Assembly (NCBI GenBank): GCA_027343665.1 | Contig: DAHWKL010000001.1 | Span: forward strand, 313,294 to 377,293 | DNA length: 64,000 nucleotides | Source of the DNA: an archaeon | GTDB lineage: Archaea > Nanobdellota > Nanobdellia > Pacearchaeales > GW2011-AR1 | Reading direction: 5' to 3' | Notes under the pieces: model-generated | The model's database searches: none | What the model was told of the DNA's origin: nothing | The model's input: the letters and a program-made list of their open reading frames with translations, nothing else | Shown here: positions 30,829 through 51,763 of the stretch, piece after piece | Position numbering within the stretch: the stretch's first letter is position 1 | Layout: every line of letters begins with the position of its first letter | Program-made: the position numbers and the translations under genes

Positions 30829-31137
30829 TCAGAGGTTTATTCTCTCTCCGGGTTTTGGATGTATAACCTCAATATCCTTATCAGGTTTATCTATTCCTAA
30901 CTTTCTTAACAGGCTTTTCGGGATTTTCTCAAAACAGTCAGAAAGAGCTTTTTCGATTTCACTTCTTTTCATAAGAAACACATCAGACACTTGGTCTTCA
31001 GATTCATGACCATACAACTTCAGCAGATCAATGCCATATTTCACAAGTTCTACAGATTTCATCTCTTTTACATACCGATCATATGCTTCAAACATTTCTT
31101 TTATTTCATCAATTGAATAAGATTTTTTTTCTTCCAT
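30829..31137 (-). CDS. hypothetical protein
   Basis: 102-aa ORF ending just before the 23S 3' flank. Confidence 0.4.
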   Translation of the reverse strand: MEEKKSYSIDEIKEMFEAYDRYVKEMKSVELVKYGIDLLKLYGHESEDQVSDVFLMKRSEIEKALSDCFEKIPKSLLRKLGIDKPDKDIEVIHPKPGERINL

Positions 31138-31214
31138 GTATCAGAGTGTAGGAAAGAATAAATAAAGGTTTCGGAAGGAATCAACCGATAAGTAGTGGAA
31201 CACGACATAAGAAA

Positions 31215-34020
<2,806 letters not shown>

Positions 34021-34174
34021 TAATAAGATATAATTTTCTTATGCCTAATGTGTTCCACTACTTATCTCATTGAACATAATTGCGAACAATTGCGTTCTCA
34101 ATCTGATCCCGAAAATTTTTCGGAACCATTCCGGTTTCCCGGTTTTTCACGTGATGTGAATATGATTTGTGATC

Positions 34175-34411
34175 TTAGTTTAGGTATTTTATATTATTTG
34201 AAACCCTTATCTTTTCTCCTTCTCGTGGGTTCTTGAACTTTTCTTCAGATTCCACAGTCCTACCTTTGTAATCTATTCTTATATTACGAAAATATTCTTC
34301 AGGGGTCCTTAACTGCTCAAGTGCCAGCATATCCATTATGGTCTCGCCTTCCCTGACTTGTTTGTATCTAACTAAGTCATTGACAGTTACTTTTGCTTTT
34401 TCTTCTAACAT
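34175..34411 (-). CDS. 78-aa ORF within the tRNA-Ala/23S spacer of the rRNA operon (hypothetical)
   Basis: Uninterrupted frame in an AT-rich region; AGGAG 8-9 nt upstream of the ATG; balanced, non-repetitive composition; co-oriented with the rRNA operon. Confidence 0.35.
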   Translation of the reverse strand: MLEEKAKVTVNDLVRYKQVREGETIMDMLALEQLRTPEEYFRNIRIDYKGRTVESEEKFKNPREGEKIRVSNNIKYLN

Positions 34412-34457
34412 TTTCTTTTCTCCTGAATTTATTAACGATCATCCGCTTAAGCACAAA

Positions 34458-34528
34458 TGGACCTGCCGTGAATTGAACACGGATCTCATGCGTGCAAGGC
34501 AAGTATTCTACCGTTGGACTACAGGCCC
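34458..34528 (-). tRNA. tRNA-Ala (anticodon UGC) in the 16S-23S spacer
   Basis: 71-nt cloverleaf; anticodon loop CUUGCAC; G3:U70 acceptor pair (alanine identity element). Confidence 0.8.
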
Positions 34529-34595
34529 ACAAAACGGATGAGTGTATGTAAAAGCTGTCCGTGATTATAAGTAAACTTTTTCTTTTGAAAAATTA

Positions 34596-36045
34596 AGGAG
34601 GTGATCCATCTGCAGGTTCCCCTACAGATACCTTGTGACGACTTAACCTACCTTGTCATATTAAGGTTCTCCCCCGAAGGGTTTCACCCTAACATAACTC
34701 GGTTGATTTGACGGGCAGTGTGTGCAAGAGACCGTGACATATTCACCGGACATTGATAATATCCGATTACTACGAATTCCAGCGTCATGAGGCTGAGTTG
34801 CAAACCTCAATCTGAACTAAGGTAAATTTTAAGGGATTAGCTTCTCCTTTCGGAGTTGCATCCAATTGTATTCACCATTGACGCGCGCGTGTCGCCCAGG
34901 GGATTTGAGCTGTGCTACCTAACGTAGCCCGCACTTTCATCCATGTTTCCACGGCAATCTCTTTATTGTACACTTGGTAAATAAAGATGCGGGTCTTGCC
35001 TGTTACCTGATTTAACAGGTCACCTCACGGCACAGGCTGACGTCGGCTATGTAACCTCTCTCAGCGTGTCAGGTAAGCCCTTCAGACTGACCTTCATTCT
35101 GCTGTCGCTCCTGGTGAGGTTCACGGTGTAGAATCTAATTGAACCGCACGCGTCACTCGTTGTAGTGTCTCCCCGCCAATTCCTTTAAGTTTCGGCCTTG
35201 CGACTATACTTCCCAGGTAGTACACTCTTCGCCTTCGCTTCAGCACCAATACCTCTCGAGGAGGTACTAATGTTTAGTGTACAGTGTTTACTGCCAGGAC
35301 TACACGGGTATCTAATCCGTTTTGCGCCCCTGGCCTTCATCCCTTACTGTCAGAACTGTCCTCGTGAGATGCCTTCGCTGTTGTGAGTCCGTTCGAGATT
35401 AACGCATTTAACCGCTACTTCGAACGTACTTCTCACGTCTTCCAGTCTCTAGCTTAATAGTATTCCCTGCGCGCCCTATATTTAAGATATAGGATTTCAC
35501 AAGGAACTTAGAAAGCAAGCTACGGATGTTTTAGACCCAATAAAAATGGCTGCGACTTGGACCGCGGGTATTACCGCGGCGGCTGGCACCCGTCTTACCC
35601 AGTCCTTATTCGCCGAACTTTTTGAATTCGGCAAAAGCATTCCAAATTGGAACGCACTCTGACTCAAACTATCACGCTTGCGCGCATTGTAGATGATTCC
35701 TAACTGCTGCACCCCGTAGGGCTGGGAATAGTGTCTCAGATTCCCTCTCAGGGCCTCTCCGCTAAGAGCCCTTACGGATCACAGGCTTGGTGGGCATTTA
35801 CCCCGCCAACAACCTAATCCGCCGCAGCCCCTTCCTTAGGCTCTAGTTTCTGGGATAAATCTTTCCAGGGTATATCCCATATTAAGTGTTAACCTCAGTT
35901 TCCCGAGGGTATCCTTAACCTAAGGGTAGGTTAGCTACGTGTTACTGAGCAGTTTGCCTTTCAATTTCTGTGAAGAAACAAAAAAGACTTGCATGTCTAA
36001 GTGCAAGTCAGAGAGCCGCAGCCGCCAGCAGGATCAACTGGAATT
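34596..36045 (-). rRNA. 16S ribosomal RNA
   Basis: Reverse complement carries the 5' end AATTCCAGTTGATCCTGCTGG and the 3' end ...GTCGTCACAAGGTATCTGTAGGGGAACCTGCAGATGGATCACCTCCTT (anti-SD). Confidence 0.85.
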
Positions 36046-36393: not shown

Positions 36394-36627
36394 ATGGACG
36401 AAAGTGATGCGAACAATATTCAGATGAGAATGCAGGAGATACAGTCAAATGAATCATTCTCCGACGCTCTCGGAAAAATACTTTCAGGTAGGAAAGGCTA
36501 CAAACCGGTGATTGAGAAAAGGAAGGAGGTCTTGATATGCAAAAAATGCATGACCCCCTATCTGATCCAAAAGCAGAAATTCTGCCATGAGTGTGGGACA
36601 AAAAATGAAGATGCTGCCAAGAACTGA
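36394..36627 (+). CDS. small zinc-ribbon protein (hypothetical)
   Basis: 77 aa with C-terminal CKKC...CHEC. Confidence 0.4.
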   Translation: MDESDANNIQMRMQEIQSNESFSDALGKILSGRKGYKPVIEKRKEVLICKKCMTPYLIQKQKFCHECGTKNEDAAKN

Positions 36628-38051: not shown

Positions 38052-41000
38052 TTAATTTTTGTAAATAATAATCTTATTACCTACTTTTTCCTCAAGACTT
38101 TTCACCCTTTTGTTAGATTTTTCAACTAAGAAGTTCAGCTTCCTTGCTTCTCTTACTATTGAATCATCATAAGCAGATTCTTCAATCAAAGATCTTGCTT
38201 TCGATAGGACCCCTGCTTTGTAATCCCATCCCGAAAGCTCATCAATTACAGGGTTGAGGAAATATCTTGATGCCAGAATCGGTTCATTATTTTTTCCATA
38301 TCCTCCAACGATAGTTCCATTGACTGAAGCAGACTTTCCTATCATCTTTGCATAAGGTATCGTAAGCTGTTTCCCTGCATCAAGTACTCCCATCTTTCCA
38401 CCCTGAGCCATTGCACCGGGATGATGCCTGTCACCCACCCAATAATATTTCGCCGAACTCCTTGTCCTTATCGCCTGAATCGGCATCATATCAATTTCAG
38501 TCTGACCATGCCACATTTTGTGAGCAAAAACTGAATCTATCCCTTTTCCGTCGACACTTGGCAATTTTATATAATCATAATTGAAACTCTGACCGGAAAC
38601 ACTTTGACCAGTCATCAAAACCCTTTGATCCTGGTATTTTCTGTCGAACTGACCCGCTATAACACTGCCCTCTGATTGGCTCTCTTTCTTACCCATCCAG
38701 TGATTGCCCGTACCAACAAAGAAAGGAACACCATTTTCCATAAGTTCTGTATTTATTGGGACTAGAAGTTCATTAAAAGCATTGAGCTGATCTTCAGGTT
38801 TGAATGCAGGAATTCCATCTAAAAATTCCTGAGTGTAAAAATTGACTGCTTCAACTACATCTTTATCGCTTGCATTGTCTTTCCTCATTCTGGCTTCAAG
38901 AATTTTTAATCGGCTCATAAAAGTCACAGGATCTGTGGAATGTGTCAGGTCATCATTTGTAGCAGCTTCTCTCTTTGAGTCGTAACTTCTGAAACCAAGT
39001 TCACCATGAAGACCCTCACTCATAAGGTTTATATCAAATCCCCTGACTCCATAAGCTTGTACTGCCGCGAGTTGTGACGAAGTTATGGTATCCGGATTTG
39101 ACGGCCTTCCGGGAGTTGAATATGATCCGACGTGAAGGTCATTCTGAAGGAAAACTCTTCCGATAATAGGTCTTGCTTTGTCCAACAAATCAGATCTTTC
39201 TTTTTCCAGTTCAATCTTCTCGGATTTATCTTTTGACTCAGCAAGTTTCTTCTCAAGTTCATTGTATCTTTCTCCCAAAGTTGTGGGATTCCCATTATTG
39301 TCTTTAATCGGCATATTAGCAACTCTCTTGAAATACCTGTCATCAAAAAAGATCTCTTCAGGGGATCTGTCAGGATGCTCTATATAAAGAACACTTCCCG
39401 ATATGGTTCCTCCTTTTGCAAGCCTCTTTCCAGCCCAAGTTCCTTTGTTCCCTTTAATCAAAAGTGCACCAAGCTTGGAAAGGTCATGCCTTGTCGGAAC
39501 TTTAATATAAGCAGTTATATGTGCGTCCTTTGCGTATTCCCCCTGAACTGTCGTCGGATCAACAGTGAACTTCCTTTGGGATAAATAACCGTCAGCCCCC
39601 CAGCTCGATAAATAAGCATCAGTATGAGCAAAATCTCTTTTGTCAAATTCTCCCAAAATTTTAGGTCTCTCCCTTCCAGAAAGAACCGCATTTGATATTT
39701 CACCTTCATGAAAAGACTGAACTTTTGCAAAGCTGTTTACTAAAGGTTCATTAGACCATTGTGCATTTGTCCTTGGATGTGAAGTGAAGATTGTTCCGAC
39801 AGGTCTGCTCTTTAAATCCTTCTTTCCTTCAATAGAATGCTGAGGGTCAGGAACTTCGACACTGATTATATCATCCGTATGAAGGAAGACTTTCAGATCT
39901 TCCCTTCCAGAATATTTCTTTATTGCCGGGATGAGGACATCTTCGTAAATCCCTTTGTAAATCTCTTTCTTTATAGTCTCAAGACCTTTTGCCTCTGTAG
40001 GCGTAATTGCAATCTTCTTCGTGAACCAAGCATGGCCTTCCATTTCCTCTACAAGATGACTGCTCGCAAAAGACTCTGCTTCTTTGAGATCATTCTGAGT
40101 CCTCTTCAAATTCTGTTCTGTTTTGTCAAAAGTCCTGTTAACACTTTCTCGATAAGCACTCACTTGCTTCATGCTAGTATTGATATTGTAAAACCTGTTC
40201 CACTCATCTTCAAAAAGAGAATCAAAAGTTTCAAAGTCTCTTCCCAACCTTCCCCTAGCTTTTGCCTTAAGATTTTCTCTTAAAGTTTTATCGAGAGCAT
40301 GTTTTCTTTTTCCATCTTTAGTCTCAAAGAACTCTTTTGTATAAGATTTGAACTCTTTACCATTTTCCGCGAAATCTTTCCCGTTAGCATGCGCCCTCTT
40401 ATCCATAAGAAAATCATAATACTTGTTGACAAGAGCGGATTTTATCTCAGATTTTACAATTAACTCTTTCTGGTCTTCAAGCATTCCTTTGAGCTCAGGG
40501 ATACTCTCTTCCGCATCTTTCATCTTTTGATGAATTTCTCTTAATATAGCAATATTCTTGTCTTCAATTTCACTCTGATTATACTCGTCATTATAACTCC
40601 AGTAAAGATGAAGCTCTCCAAATTGTGGAAGGTTCTTAACCTGGTCAGAAAGCTCAAAGCCCACACTTTCAGCAGCCTCTTCCATAGAATCAATTGTGTT
40701 GACGACGTATTTTTCAAGATTTTTTATCGCTTTTTTGGACAAGTGGGGTCTTCCCAATTCATCATTAAGAAGATTCAACTTTTGTTTTATCATCTCAAAT
40801 TCAACATCATCAATATCAGGATCGGCTTTATTAAGCCCGGTCATTATCGCTCTTTTGTTCTTATTCTTTCCAAAAAGTGTCACTATATCAGGCATTATTC
40901 CACCCTGCATGTGGTAGCTCACAAGATAATCATCAACACCCATTGCCTGCCTTACAATTTTCTCCCCTAAGAAAGCATCATTGTTTGTAAAAAGAGTTCC

Positions 41001-41399
41001 AGTTCCCATCTCACCGCTGAGCCAGTGCATCTTAGTCACCCTATAATCTCCAAAGTTTTTATCCCATCTCAGTTTATTCTGGTTCACCAATGCATTCACA
41101 AGAGATTCATCTTTGGAATAATAACCATTGTTCGTTGGAAGAGAATCTGTTGGAACACCCCATATTCGGGCCACTTTCTCGAAACTTTTTTTCACTTCAT
41201 TGGAAGTTTTTCCTGTTTTCTGTGCAATTGCCTCAAAGCTCGGGACAAAATTATCAAAGATGGAGGAGGTTACAAGAAATCTTCCGACATTGTGAGGTGA
41301 AAGTTCGGCAGCAGCCTTAAGAAAAGCCCTGTCGTCGGAGTTTACAAGAAGGCGTTCCTCAAGAATTTTTGGAACTTTACTGCCCCTTTTTACTTCCAT
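38052..41399 (-). CDS. large hypothetical protein (1115 aa) with coiled-coil middle region and C-terminal metallophosphoesterase-like motif pattern
   Basis: Single uninterrupted ORF; no signal peptide; C-terminal third contains NDLHVG, GTGNHW and GDRHHPG in the order of calcineurin/Mre11-type motifs I, III and V (weak). Confidence 0.5.
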   Translation of the reverse strand: MEVKRGSKVPKILEERLLVNSDDRAFLKAAAELSPHNVGRFLVTSSIFDNFVPSFEAIAQKTGKTSNEVKKSFEKVARIWGVPTDSLPTNNGYYSKDESLVNALVNQNKLRWDKNFGDYRVTKMHWLSGEMGTGTLFTNNDAFLGEKIVRQAMGVDDYLVSYHMQGGIMPDIVTLFGKNKNKRAIMTGLNKADPDIDDVEFEMIKQKLNLLNDELGRPHLSKKAIKNLEKYVVNTIDSMEEAAESVGFELSDQVKNLPQFGELHLYWSYNDEYNQSEIEDKNIAILREIHQKMKDAEESIPELKGMLEDQKELIVKSEIKSALVNKYYDFLMDKRAHANGKDFAENGKEFKSYTKEFFETKDGKRKHALDKTLRENLKAKARGRLGRDFETFDSLFEDEWNRFYNINTSMKQVSAYRESVNRTFDKTEQNLKRTQNDLKEAESFASSHLVEEMEGHAWFTKKIAITPTEAKGLETIKKEIYKGIYEDVLIPAIKKYSGREDLKVFLHTDDIISVEVPDPQHSIEGKKDLKSRPVGTIFTSHPRTNAQWSNEPLVNSFAKVQSFHEGEISNAVLSGRERPKILGEFDKRDFAHTDAYLSSWGADGYLSQRKFTVDPTTVQGEYAKDAHITAYIKVPTRHDLSKLGALLIKGNKGTWAGKRLAKGGTISGSVLYIEHPDRSPEEIFFDDRYFKRVANMPIKDNNGNPTTLGERYNELEKKLAESKDKSEKIELEKERSDLLDKARPIIGRVFLQNDLHVGSYSTPGRPSNPDTITSSQLAAVQAYGVRGFDINLMSEGLHGELGFRSYDSKREAATNDDLTHSTDPVTFMSRLKILEARMRKDNASDKDVVEAVNFYTQEFLDGIPAFKPEDQLNAFNELLVPINTELMENGVPFFVGTGNHWMGKKESQSEGSVIAGQFDRKYQDQRVLMTGQSVSGQSFNYDYIKLPSVDGKGIDSVFAHKMWHGQTEIDMMPIQAIRTRSSAKYYWVGDRHHPGAMAQGGKMGVLDAGKQLTIPYAKMIGKSASVNGTIVGGYGKNNEPILASRYFLNPVIDELSGWDYKAGVLSKARSLIEESAYDDSIVREARKLNFLVEKSNKRVKSLEEKVGNKIIIYKN

Positions 41400-51670: not shown

Positions 51671-51763
51671 GCCTGCATAGCTCAGTTGGCAGAGCGATTG
51701 CTTCGTAAGTGATATTTTCACAGGAAGAGCAATAGGTCGGGAGTTCGACTCTCCCTGCAGGCT
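51671..51763 (+). tRNA. tRNA-Thr (anticodon CGU) with ~20-nt intron 3' of the anticodon
   Basis: Acceptor GCCUGCA/UGCAGGC, D-arm GCUC..GAGC, anticodon stem AUUGC/GCAAU interrupted after UUCGUA by AGUGAUAUUUUCACAGGAAG; T-arm GGGAGUUCGACUCUCCC; TATA-like box ~25 bp upstream. Confidence 0.65.

What the first reader, a model, noticed from the sequence alone, without database searches (positions are those of the whole stretch)
34175..34411. Protein-coding-looking ORF with an SD inside the tRNA-Ala/23S spacer of the rRNA operon
The spacer between tRNA-Ala(UGC) and the 23S 5' end holds an uninterrupted 78-codon frame (MLEEKAKVTVNDLVRYKQVREGETIMDMLALEQLRTPEEYFRNIRIDYKGRTVESEEKFKNPREGEKIRVSNNIKYLN). 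It is in the same orientation as the rRNAs. AGGAG lies 8-9 nt upstream, and the composition is non-repetitive and charged, like a small beta-rich RNA-binding or ubiquitin-like protein. Spacers of rRNA operons are normally non-coding. An ORF of this length is unlikely by chance in stop-codon-rich AT-rich DNA. If real, it would be co-transcribed with pre-rRNA.
Basis: seen in the sequence. Interest (0 to 1): 0.55.

Follow-up and report, generated by a model that had tools for sequence, protein, structure and literature searches.

The report
Small-protein gene slot in archaeal rRNA spacer
The 78-codon ORF is real and sits in a spot of the ribosomal RNA operon spacer where related tiny (DPANN) archaea also carry small protein genes, but this one is found in a single strain, has no relatives anywhere, and has not been shown to be expressed.

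Summary
A 78-codon ATG ORF (34411..34175, minus strand) lies between tRNA-Ala and 23S of an archaeal (Pacearchaeota-like DPANN) rRNA operon, in the operon's orientation, with AGGAG 8 nt upstream.

The ORF sits on a 260-nt stretch that is missing from a strain of the same species (16S 3/1449 and 23S 1/2824 differences). It has no homolog among about 15 billion predicted proteins.

It is not an isolated oddity. In 30 related spacers, the same site, between two conserved boxes (TCGTTAATAA and AAATCATATTCA), is either empty or holds a sense-strand ORF. Most hold a conserved ~100-aa family ("A": frame kept at 30-55% identity, dN/dS 0.2-0.6, confident AlphaFold model, no known fold, only ever seen in this spacer). 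Others hold unrelated ORFs.

The window insert shows no RNA structure signal and no Rfam match, and it lies 108 nt upstream of the 23S processing stem. Its codon usage is gene-like, though only modestly above a composition-matched control (p 0.014-0.06).

Best reading (confidence 0.55): a strain-specific accessory small-protein gene in a variable spacer gene slot, expressed by riding on rRNA transcription. Its function is unknown.

The parts
34175..34411 (-). W78: 78-aa ORF (ATG..TAA), 9.4 kDa, pI 7.95, hydrophilic, no Cys/His/Trp. This is the finding itself.
   Evidence: self-only in protein searches
34169..34428 (-). 260-nt strain-specific segment: a 17-nt leader (ATTCAGGAGAAAAGAAA), the ORF and GATCAC. 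The same-species strain L001 has only 'TAA' here.
   Evidence: alignment A1; exact junctions
34420..34424 (-). AGGAG Shine-Dalgarno-like motif, 8 nt upstream of the ATG. It is complementary to the CCUCCU at the 16S 3' end.
   Evidence: SD use is rare in this genome
34429..34438 (-). Box 1 (TCGTTAATAA), the conserved left border of the slot. With the next bases it reads TCGTTAATAAAT, one mismatch from this genome's TATA element (AAGTTTATAAAT).
34157..34168 (-). Box 2 (AAATCATATTCA), the conserved right border of the slot. It overlaps the 5' half of hairpin 1.
34146..34160 (-). Hairpin 1 (TTCAC-ATCAC-GTGAA), present in all related spacers as TTCAAC..GTTGAA or CCCC..GGGG variants.
34105..34127 (-). 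Conserved hairpin GGUUC..GAUC: a 7-9 bp stem in 13 of 13 unique spacers, with compensatory changes at stem positions 4-6. This is the RNA-constrained part of the spacer.
34034..34066 (-). 5' arm of the 23S processing stem (GATAAGTAGTGGAACAC / AUUA bulge / GGCATAAGAAAA), 108 nt downstream of the ORF stop codon.
   Evidence: duplex -45.7 kcal/mol
31187..31215 (-). 3' arm of the 23S processing stem.
34457..34529 (-). tRNA-Ala(UGC)
34596..36044 (-). 16S rRNA (archaeal model, 1289 bits)
31212..34035 (-). 23S rRNA (archaeal model, 2168 bits)

Best explanation
W78 is most likely a genuine, strain-specific accessory small-protein gene. It occupies a variable gene slot in the tRNA-Ala/23S spacer of the rRNA operon of a Pacearchaeota-like (DPANN) clade. 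The slot is bounded by two conserved boxes, TCGTTAATAA and AAATCATATTCA. In relatives it is either empty or holds a sense-strand ORF, most often the conserved ~100-aa family A.

Inferred mechanism:
1. The ORF has no promoter that fits its ATG. The TATA-like box 1 would start transcription 3-5 nt inside the ORF. So the ORF is transcribed as part of the pre-rRNA from the rRNA promoter.
2. Cleavage at the tRNA-Ala 3' end and at the 23S processing stem would release or leave a spacer RNA that carries the SD and the ORF. Translation could start from the AGGAG on that RNA or on the nascent transcript.
3. Slot content is gained, lost or swapped by recombination at or near the two boxes. These are flanked by the most conserved DNA in the genome (16S, tRNA-Ala, 23S).

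Shown: the anatomy, the strain polymorphism, the recurrent occupancy of the slot, the protein-level constraint on family A, and the lack of an RNA-structure signal in the insert.

Inferred: expression of W78, its route of translation, and the recombination mechanism. The biochemical function of the 9.4-kDa hydrophilic protein is unknown.
For: 1. A complete gene unit fills the insert. The 260-nt strain-specific segment is a 17-nt leader with the SD, the 237-nt ORF and 6 nt more. An ORF of this length has p=0.0066 on the operon strand.
2. The codon score is +0.305 per codon in the ORF's frame and negative in the other five frames. That is the median of real gene windows and above all 830 off-frame windows and all 57 shadow ORFs. 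It also exceeds composition-matched shuffles (p=0.014 with stops removed; 0.06 for open stretches of at least 40 codons).
3. Of 30 related spacers from independent genomes and metagenomes, 23 carry a sense-strand ORF at this site.
4. Family A is a real protein. Its frame is kept at 29-56% amino-acid identity, pN is below pS in every divergent pair (dN/dS 0.23-0.63), and the AlphaFold model is confident (pLDDT 87, pTM 0.74). Every member that could be placed lies in this spacer.
6. The insert is not structured RNA: fold z=-0.66, no Rfam hit at E<=1, and no overlap with the 23S stem. The spacer just downstream of the slot does show hairpin covariation.
7. There is a second presence/absence pair, identical over the 420 nt of 23S compared: L027 (X68) versus L020/L031.
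Against: - There is no homolog in 5.8 billion clusters or in an exhaustive HMMER scan of 1.84 billion representatives, so selection on W78 cannot be measured.
- It is absent from a same-species strain, so it is dispensable.
- About half of the codon signal comes from purine-rich composition alone.
- SD motifs are rare in this genome, so the AGGAG is nearly uninformative.
- The single-sequence AlphaFold model is unconfident (pLDDT 44).
- W78 is unrelated to family A (hhalign probability 0.07%, hmmsearch E 0.63).
- It is seen on a single contig only, with no expression data.
Confidence: 0.55

Rival explanations
1. Intact but unselected passenger. The 260-nt segment is a recently acquired piece of DNA carrying a complete small gene, possibly from another strain's spacer slot. 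In this host it is neither expressed usefully nor under selection, and it is simply tolerated because it does not disturb rRNA processing.
For: It is a strain-level presence/absence polymorphism against nearly identical rRNAs. It is an orphan. The slot is often empty (7 of 30 spacers, spread across all four 23S clades), so slot content is dispensable. Gene-like codon usage would be inherited from any AT-rich donor.
Against: All five ORF types are in the sense orientation and intact. Family A, at the same site, is under purifying selection. The ORF is uninterrupted, with an SD at canonical spacing.
Confidence: 0.25
2. Chance ORF. The segment is a non-coding, A-rich expansion of a hypervariable spacer, and the open frame, ATG and AGGAG are coincidences of a T-poor strand.
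For: The spacer just 3' of tRNA-Ala is an indel hotspot. L002/L012 carry an unrelated insertion there, and spacer length ranges from 125 to 541 nt. Composition alone gives a codon score of +0.13, and 6% of open shuffled frames reach the observed value. On either strand the ORF-length p is only 0.045.
Against: The ORF spans 237 of the 260 inserted nt, and the remainder supplies the SD. ORF length and codon score together are rare (about 0.0066 x 0.06). G at first codon positions is 33%. The same slot holds proven coding sequences in relatives.
Confidence: 0.12
3. RNA element. The insert is an intron-like or processing-related RNA (a BHB or group I intron, a small RNA, or part of the 23S processing stem), and the ORF is incidental.
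For: rRNA genes of DPANN and CPR organisms often carry introns and insertions (PMC6125680, PMC11270868). The neighbouring spacer contains conserved hairpins.
Against: The fold z-score is -0.66, and 50 of 200 shuffles fold at least as well. There is no Rfam match at E<=1. The 23S stem arms are at 34066..34034 and 31215..31187, clear of the ORF. The insert is in the spacer, not inside a mature rRNA. No pairing of the insert borders was evident.
Confidence: 0.03
4. Assembly artefact. The 260 nt were spliced into the spacer by mis-assembly of a metagenome.
For: The segment is seen on one contig only. Exact look-ups of W78 and of the neighbouring Sua5 found no second contig. rRNA operons are prone to mis-assembly, and L002 may be a chimera.
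Against: Both junctions fall exactly at the conserved slot boxes used by ORF-bearing spacers in other lineages. The right end restores the extended box ATCACAAATCATATTCA seen in L007, L030 and L037. A random chimera would not deliver a complete SD-plus-ORF unit in the sense orientation.
Confidence: 0.05

Closest known systems
Family A, the spacer-resident ~100-aa protein family of related Pacearchaeota found here (P0125-P0133; for example on PCVV01000018.1, Pacearchaeota archaeon CG11_big_fil_rev_8_21_14_0_20_30_13)
   Same: Same genomic site (between box 1 and box 2 of the tRNA-Ala/23S spacer), same orientation, similar size, a similar A/G-rich leader before the ATG, no Pfam family, and no known fold.
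   Different: No sequence relationship (hhalign probability 0.07%, hmmsearch E 0.63; no similarity in any frame). Family A is widespread and conserved, whereas W78 is a single-strain orphan.
ORF-bearing intervening sequences (IVS) of bacterial 23S rRNA, for example the Coxiella burnetii IVS encoding S23p (PMC4990558)
   Same: A small ORF embedded in the rRNA operon transcript, removed from the mature rRNA by processing, variably present, and regarded as a selfish or accessory element. Its translation is also doubtful: according to that paper's abstract, S23p appears not to be made.
   Different: The IVS lies inside the 23S gene (helix 45) and is bacterial, and its ORF belongs to a defined family (S23p). 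W78 lies in the spacer of an archaeal operon and has no family.
Homing-endonuclease genes in rRNA introns and insertions of archaea, DPANN and CPR (PMC6125680, PMC11270868, PMC2602781)
   Same: Protein genes that ride inside rRNA operons, with patchy strain-level distribution. They are common in ultrasmall, reduced-genome lineages.
   Different: No LAGLIDADG, HNH or GIY-YIG domain and no intron RNA. The insertion is in the spacer rather than in a mature rRNA. At 78 aa the protein is too small for known homing endonucleases (my own knowledge).
Replacement-type variable loci flanked by conserved genes, such as capsule or O-antigen loci exchanged by homologous recombination in the flanks (my own knowledge, not tested here)
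   Same: One fixed chromosomal site with conserved borders holds unrelated alternative cargos in close relatives.
   Different: Here the cargo is a single tiny ORF, the flanks are rRNA and tRNA genes, and no recombination tracts were demonstrated.

Membership tests
Spacer-slot family A (P0125-P0133) | Sequence or profile homology to the family | tested here: not met
   hhalign probability 0.07%; hmmsearch E 0.63; tblastx shows no interior similarity in any frame
Spacer-slot family A (P0125-P0133) | Location between box 1 and box 2 of the tRNA-Ala/23S spacer, on the sense strand | tested here: met
Homing endonuclease gene in an rRNA intron (group I or BHB) | LAGLIDADG, HNH, GIY-YIG or His-Cys box domain | tested here: not met
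   No Pfam or NCBIfam match at E<0.01
Homing endonuclease gene in an rRNA intron (group I or BHB) | Interrupts a mature rRNA and has an intron RNA structure | tested here: not met
   Lies in the spacer; no Rfam hit at E<=1; fold z=-0.66
23S rRNA IVS protein (S23p, PF05635) | PF05635 domain; location in a 23S helix | tested here: not met
   No Pfam hit; located outside the 23S gene
Transposable element (IS or MITE) | Terminal inverted repeats, target-site duplication, multiple copies | tested here: not met
   No TSD or TIR at the junctions and no second copy in the 64-kb window or in any fetched locus. The rest of the genome could not be searched.
tRNA-targeting integrative element | Duplicated tRNA 3' end (att site) flanking the insert; an integrase | tested here: not met
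   No tRNA-Ala 3' duplicate in the window spacer. Such a duplicate does exist in L002/L012, but without any ORF.
Phage or defence-system protein | Match to a PHROG or PADLOC model, or a relative on viral contigs | tested here: not met
Ordinary protein-coding gene of this genome | Host-like codon usage in one frame only; a start with a ribosome-binding signal; conservation in relatives | tested here: inconclusive
   Codon usage is met, but only modestly above the composition control. An SD is present, but SDs are rare in this genome. Conservation is not met: the ORF is absent from L001 and has no homologs.

The most novel reading that the evidence does not exclude
Probability: 0.25. Interest if true: 0.8.

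Novelty: new variant of a known kind. Interest (0 to 1): 0.6.

Why it matters
rRNA operon spacers are treated as non-coding and are usually masked or ignored in annotation.

Here one spacer site in a clade of ultrasmall archaea repeatedly carries small protein genes. One of them is a conserved family with a confident predicted fold and no known relatives, seen only at this site.

If these ORFs are translated, three things follow:
- The excised pre-rRNA spacer would double as an mRNA driven by the strongest promoter in the cell.
- A highly reduced genome would be keeping accessory genes inside its single rRNA operon.
- rRNA and tRNA flanks would act as universal homology arms for exchanging cargo between strains.

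It also has a practical consequence for 16S-ITS-23S amplicon work, because spacer length in this clade varies from 125 to 541 nt depending on cargo.

Tried and rejected
- **Protein homology for W78.** Pfam, NCBIfam, PHROGs and PADLOC gave nothing. The word-indexed search found only the sequence itself. The exhaustive HMMER scan returned three long repeat proteins, rejected as summed-repeat artefacts.
- **Structure of W78.** The single-sequence AlphaFold model had pLDDT 44, so no fold search was run on it.
- **W78 as a frameshifted or scrambled family A gene.** Rejected: tblastx and blastn similarity is confined to the two boxes and the leader.
- **Transposon, MITE or integrative element.** No TSD, TIR, tRNA duplicate or extra copies.
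- **Viral origin.** No relatives of W78 or family A on IMG/VR contigs, and no spacer motif there.
- **RNA element.** No Rfam hit and no excess folding energy.
- **Box 1 as the ORF's own promoter.** It is one mismatch from this genome's TATA element, but the spacing puts the predicted start 3-5 nt inside W78 and is inconsistent across loci. Left unresolved.
- **RNAalifold on the downstream spacer.** It failed because MAFFT mis-registered the hairpin. It was replaced by an anchored stem count.
- **Exact-sequence contig look-ups.** Nothing was returned for W78 or the window's Sua5.
- **Literature.** Six literature searches found no description of protein genes in DPANN rRNA spacers.

Full report
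**1. Observation**

The window carries an archaeal rRNA operon on the minus strand: 16S at 36044..34596, tRNA-Ala(UGC) at 34529..34457 and 23S at 34035..31212 (Rfam and ARAGORN). No 5S gene was detected. The 421-nt tRNA-Ala/23S spacer contains the reported ORF at 34411..34175. It has an ATG start, 78 codons and a TAA stop, and it runs in the operon's orientation, with AGGAG 8 nt upstream.

In dinucleotide-preserving shuffles of the spacer, an ATG ORF this long occurs on the operon strand in 0.66% of trials, and on either strand in 4.5%.

**2. Is it RNA rather than protein?**

The 23S processing stem is strong (-45.7 kcal/mol). Its arms are at 34066..34034 and 31215..31187, so its 5' arm starts 108 nt downstream of the ORF stop. 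It has a single 4-nt bulge rather than an evident canonical bulge-helix-bulge motif.

The 260-nt ORF-bearing segment folds no better than shuffles (z = -0.66). A permissive Rfam scan of the spacer finds nothing at E<=1.

The part of the spacer between the ORF and the 23S stem is clearly RNA-constrained. A GGUUC..GAUC hairpin keeps a 7-9 bp stem in 13 of 13 distinct related spacers, with compensatory changes at three stem positions.

**3. Coding signal**

A codon model was trained on 44 long ORFs of the window.
- The ORF scores +0.305 bits per codon in its own frame and -0.34 to -0.99 in the other five frames.
- That equals the median of real gene windows (0.297).
- It exceeds all 830 off-frame windows and all 57 shadow ORFs.

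A stricter control tempers this. Dinucleotide shuffles of the ORF itself already score +0.13 on average because the strand is purine-rich. 1.4% of stop-removed shuffles, and 6% of shuffles with open stretches of at least 40 codons, reach the observed value. The codon signal is therefore supportive, not decisive.

The SD adds little, because only 10 of 44 genes have a 4-mer SD motif and only 1 has a 5-mer.

**4. Homologs**

There is no Pfam, NCBIfam, PHROG or PADLOC match. The 5.8-billion-cluster search returns only the sequence itself, from one 453-kb NCBI/ENA contig. The exhaustive HMMER scan of 1.84 billion representatives adds only three long tandem-repeat proteins, whose scores are sums of weak repeat matches. 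No relative is encoded on IMG/VR viral contigs. W78 is an orphan.

Folded alone, it gives pLDDT 44. It is 9.4 kDa with pI 7.95, is hydrophilic, and has no Cys, His or Trp.

**5. Close relatives**

The divergent neighbour of the 16S gene is Sua5, and its best homologs place the organism among the DPANN Nanoarchaeia (Pacearchaeota/Woesearchaeota-like).

Contig DAICIJ010000002.1 (GCA_027371415.1, locus L001) has the same gene order across the whole region. It differs from the window at:
- 3 of 1449 positions in 16S;
- 1 of 2824 positions in 23S;
- about 2% of positions in the flanking DNA.

It is therefore the same species. Its tRNA-Ala/23S spacer is 164 nt, not 421. The two spacers are identical for the first 28 nt, ending in ...GATCGTTAATAA, and again over the last 85 nt. 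From AAATCATATTCAC up to those last 85 nt they differ only by two 1-nt indels. In between, L001 has 'TAA' where the window has 260 nt: a 17-nt leader with AGGAG, the ORF, and GATCAC.

There is no target-site duplication, no terminal repeat, and no second copy in the window or in any fetched locus. W78 is not a conserved spacer gene.

The direction of the change is uncertain. Parsimony over L001, L012 and L007, all without an ORF, suggests a gain in the window strain. However, the window keeps the extended box ATCACAAATCATATTCA seen in other clades, and L001 lacks it, which would also fit a deletion in L001.

**6. The wider picture**

A 19-mer from the 23S stem arm (TTCAATGAGATAAGTAGTG) was scanned against GTDB genomes and JGI metagenomes. 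It retrieved 2 plus 23 archaeal spacer loci; the other hits were chance matches.

Together with L001, L007 and three loci reached through family A proteins, 30 spacers could be compared. They share one architecture:
- tRNA-Ala;
- a variable stretch;
- box 1, (T)TCGTTAATAA;
- an A/G-rich leader ending in GGA(R)(R)AAGAAAATG;
- the ORF;
- box 2, (ATCAC)AAATCATATTCA;
- two hairpins;
- the 23S stem.

In seven spacers the two boxes sit next to each other with no ORF. In the other 23, a sense-strand ORF lies between them.

Most of these ORFs belong to one family, here called A, of 99-117 aa.
- It has at least 9 database clusters.
- Its members share 29-56% pairwise identity with the frame preserved.
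- pN is below pS in every divergent pair, giving dN/dS of 0.23-0.63 with saturated dS.
- Its AlphaFold model is confident (pLDDT 87, pTM 0.74) and shows a small beta-sheet plus helices.
- It has no significant match in PDB or BFVD and no Pfam family.
- Every family A member that could be placed lies in this spacer.

Scored with the window's codon model, all the slot ORFs are positive only in their own frame. T5+ runs, which are potential archaeal terminators, are almost absent from the operon strand.

Clustering on 420 nt of 23S gives four clades.
- Family A occurs in three of the four, on both sides of the deepest split, so it is probably the ancestral occupant.
- Empty slots occur in every clade.
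- Twice, strains identical over the 420 nt of 23S compared differ only by a unique ORF: window versus L001, and L027 versus L020/L031.

**7. Interpretation**

The ORF sits in a spacer position that repeatedly hosts small protein genes in this clade, and its borders coincide with the conserved slot borders. I consider it most likely (0.55) a real accessory gene.

Expression is inferred, not shown. Box 1 resembles this genome's TATA element (AAGTTTATAAAT upstream of the tRNA, RNase P and 16S genes). However, its spacing would start transcription 3-5 nt inside W78, so the ORF would have to be read from the pre-rRNA.

In model archaea the sequences flanking 16S and 23S are cut at the processing stems, and the leftover spacers are themselves ligated (PMC7038931, citing Tang et al. 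2002). That would leave a spacer RNA that could serve as a message. Exchange of slot content by recombination at the boxes, or in the rRNA and tRNA flanks, is also an inference.

The rivals are:
- an intact but unselected passenger (0.25);
- a chance ORF in an A-rich spacer expansion (0.12);
- an assembly artefact (0.05);
- an RNA element (0.03).

**8. Relation to known systems**

ORFs embedded in rRNA operons are known. Examples are the Coxiella 23S intervening sequence encoding S23p (PMC4990558) and homing-endonuclease genes in rRNA introns and insertions of archaea and CPR bacteria (PMC6125680, PMC11270868, PMC2602781).

W78 fails the defining features of each of these. It has no endonuclease or S23p domain and no intron RNA, and it lies in the spacer rather than inside a mature rRNA.

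Six literature searches found no description of protein genes in the rRNA spacer of DPANN archaea. That library is incomplete, so this is absence of evidence only.

I rate the finding a new variant of a known kind. W78 itself is an uncharacterisable orphan. The slot and family A are the more interesting result.

Noticed in passing
L010 878..1231 (-); also L016, L017, L022, L026, L034, L037, L040-L042: Family A is a conserved ~100-aa protein family found only in the tRNA-Ala/23S spacer of related Pacearchaeota. Its AlphaFold model is confident (pLDDT 87), and it has no Pfam family and no significant PDB or BFVD fold match. It deserves study in its own right.
   Followed up: partly
L012 7203..7439 (-) and L002 1..200 (-): This spacer variant has no ORF but contains a 20-nt duplicate of the tRNA-Ala 3' end (AATTCACGGCAGGTCCATTT) 45 nt after the tRNA, like the scar of an element integrated at the tRNA. 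L022 has a smaller GGTCCA duplicate. L002 has exactly L001's Sua5 protein but an L012-type spacer, so it is either a recombinant or a chimeric contig.
   Followed up: partly
[not shown]
   Followed up: partly
window 30829..31137 (-): A 102-aa orphan ORF starts about 50 nt after the 3' arm of the 23S processing stem, on the operon strand. It is conserved in L001 (3 synonymous and 6 non-synonymous codon differences) and has no Pfam match. It may also be co-transcribed with the rRNA.
   Followed up: partly
window 36394..36627 (+): A 77-aa ORF lies between the 16S promoter region and Sua5. Between the window and L001 it shows 10 synonymous and 0 non-synonymous codon differences, so it is a strongly constrained small protein of unknown function. 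Its function was not examined further.
   Followed up: no
window 34429..34440 (-): With the next bases, box 1 reads TCGTTAATAAAT. That is one mismatch from the TATA element shared by this genome's tRNA, RNase P and 16S promoters (AAGTTTATAAAT), so it may be an internal promoter upstream of 23S. It is present whether or not the slot holds an ORF.
   Followed up: partly
spacers of L017, L022, L026, L030, L034, L037, L040-L042: An upstream ATG (ATGGARRAAGAAAATG, peptide MEKEN.../MEEEN...) opens a 36-64 codon overlapping frame 13 nt before the family A start. In L027 this upstream ATG is the start of the main ORF (X68). Which ATG is used is unknown.
   Followed up: no
window 34609..34622 (-), 16S 3' end: The 16S reads GTCGTCACAAGG where the near-universal 1492R primer site reads GTCGTAACAAGG (an A-to-C change, by my own knowledge of the consensus). 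L025 and L028 share it, so standard 1492R primers may miss this clade.
   Followed up: no
window 31212..36044 (-) and the whole window: There is no 5S rRNA gene in or near the operon, or anywhere in the 64 kb (Rfam gathering scan). The 16S (1449 nt) and 23S (2824 nt) are shorter than the archaeal models. A T7 run sits at the 23S 3' end, inside the processing stem.
   Followed up: no
window 38052..41399 (-): A 1115-aa ORF with no Pfam domain at E<=0.001. It is conserved next to Sua5/LigD_N in L001 and L003 but absent from that position in L005 and L007.
   Followed up: no
window 51671..51763 (+): tRNA-Thr(CGU) is 93 nt long, so it presumably contains an intron.
   Followed up: no
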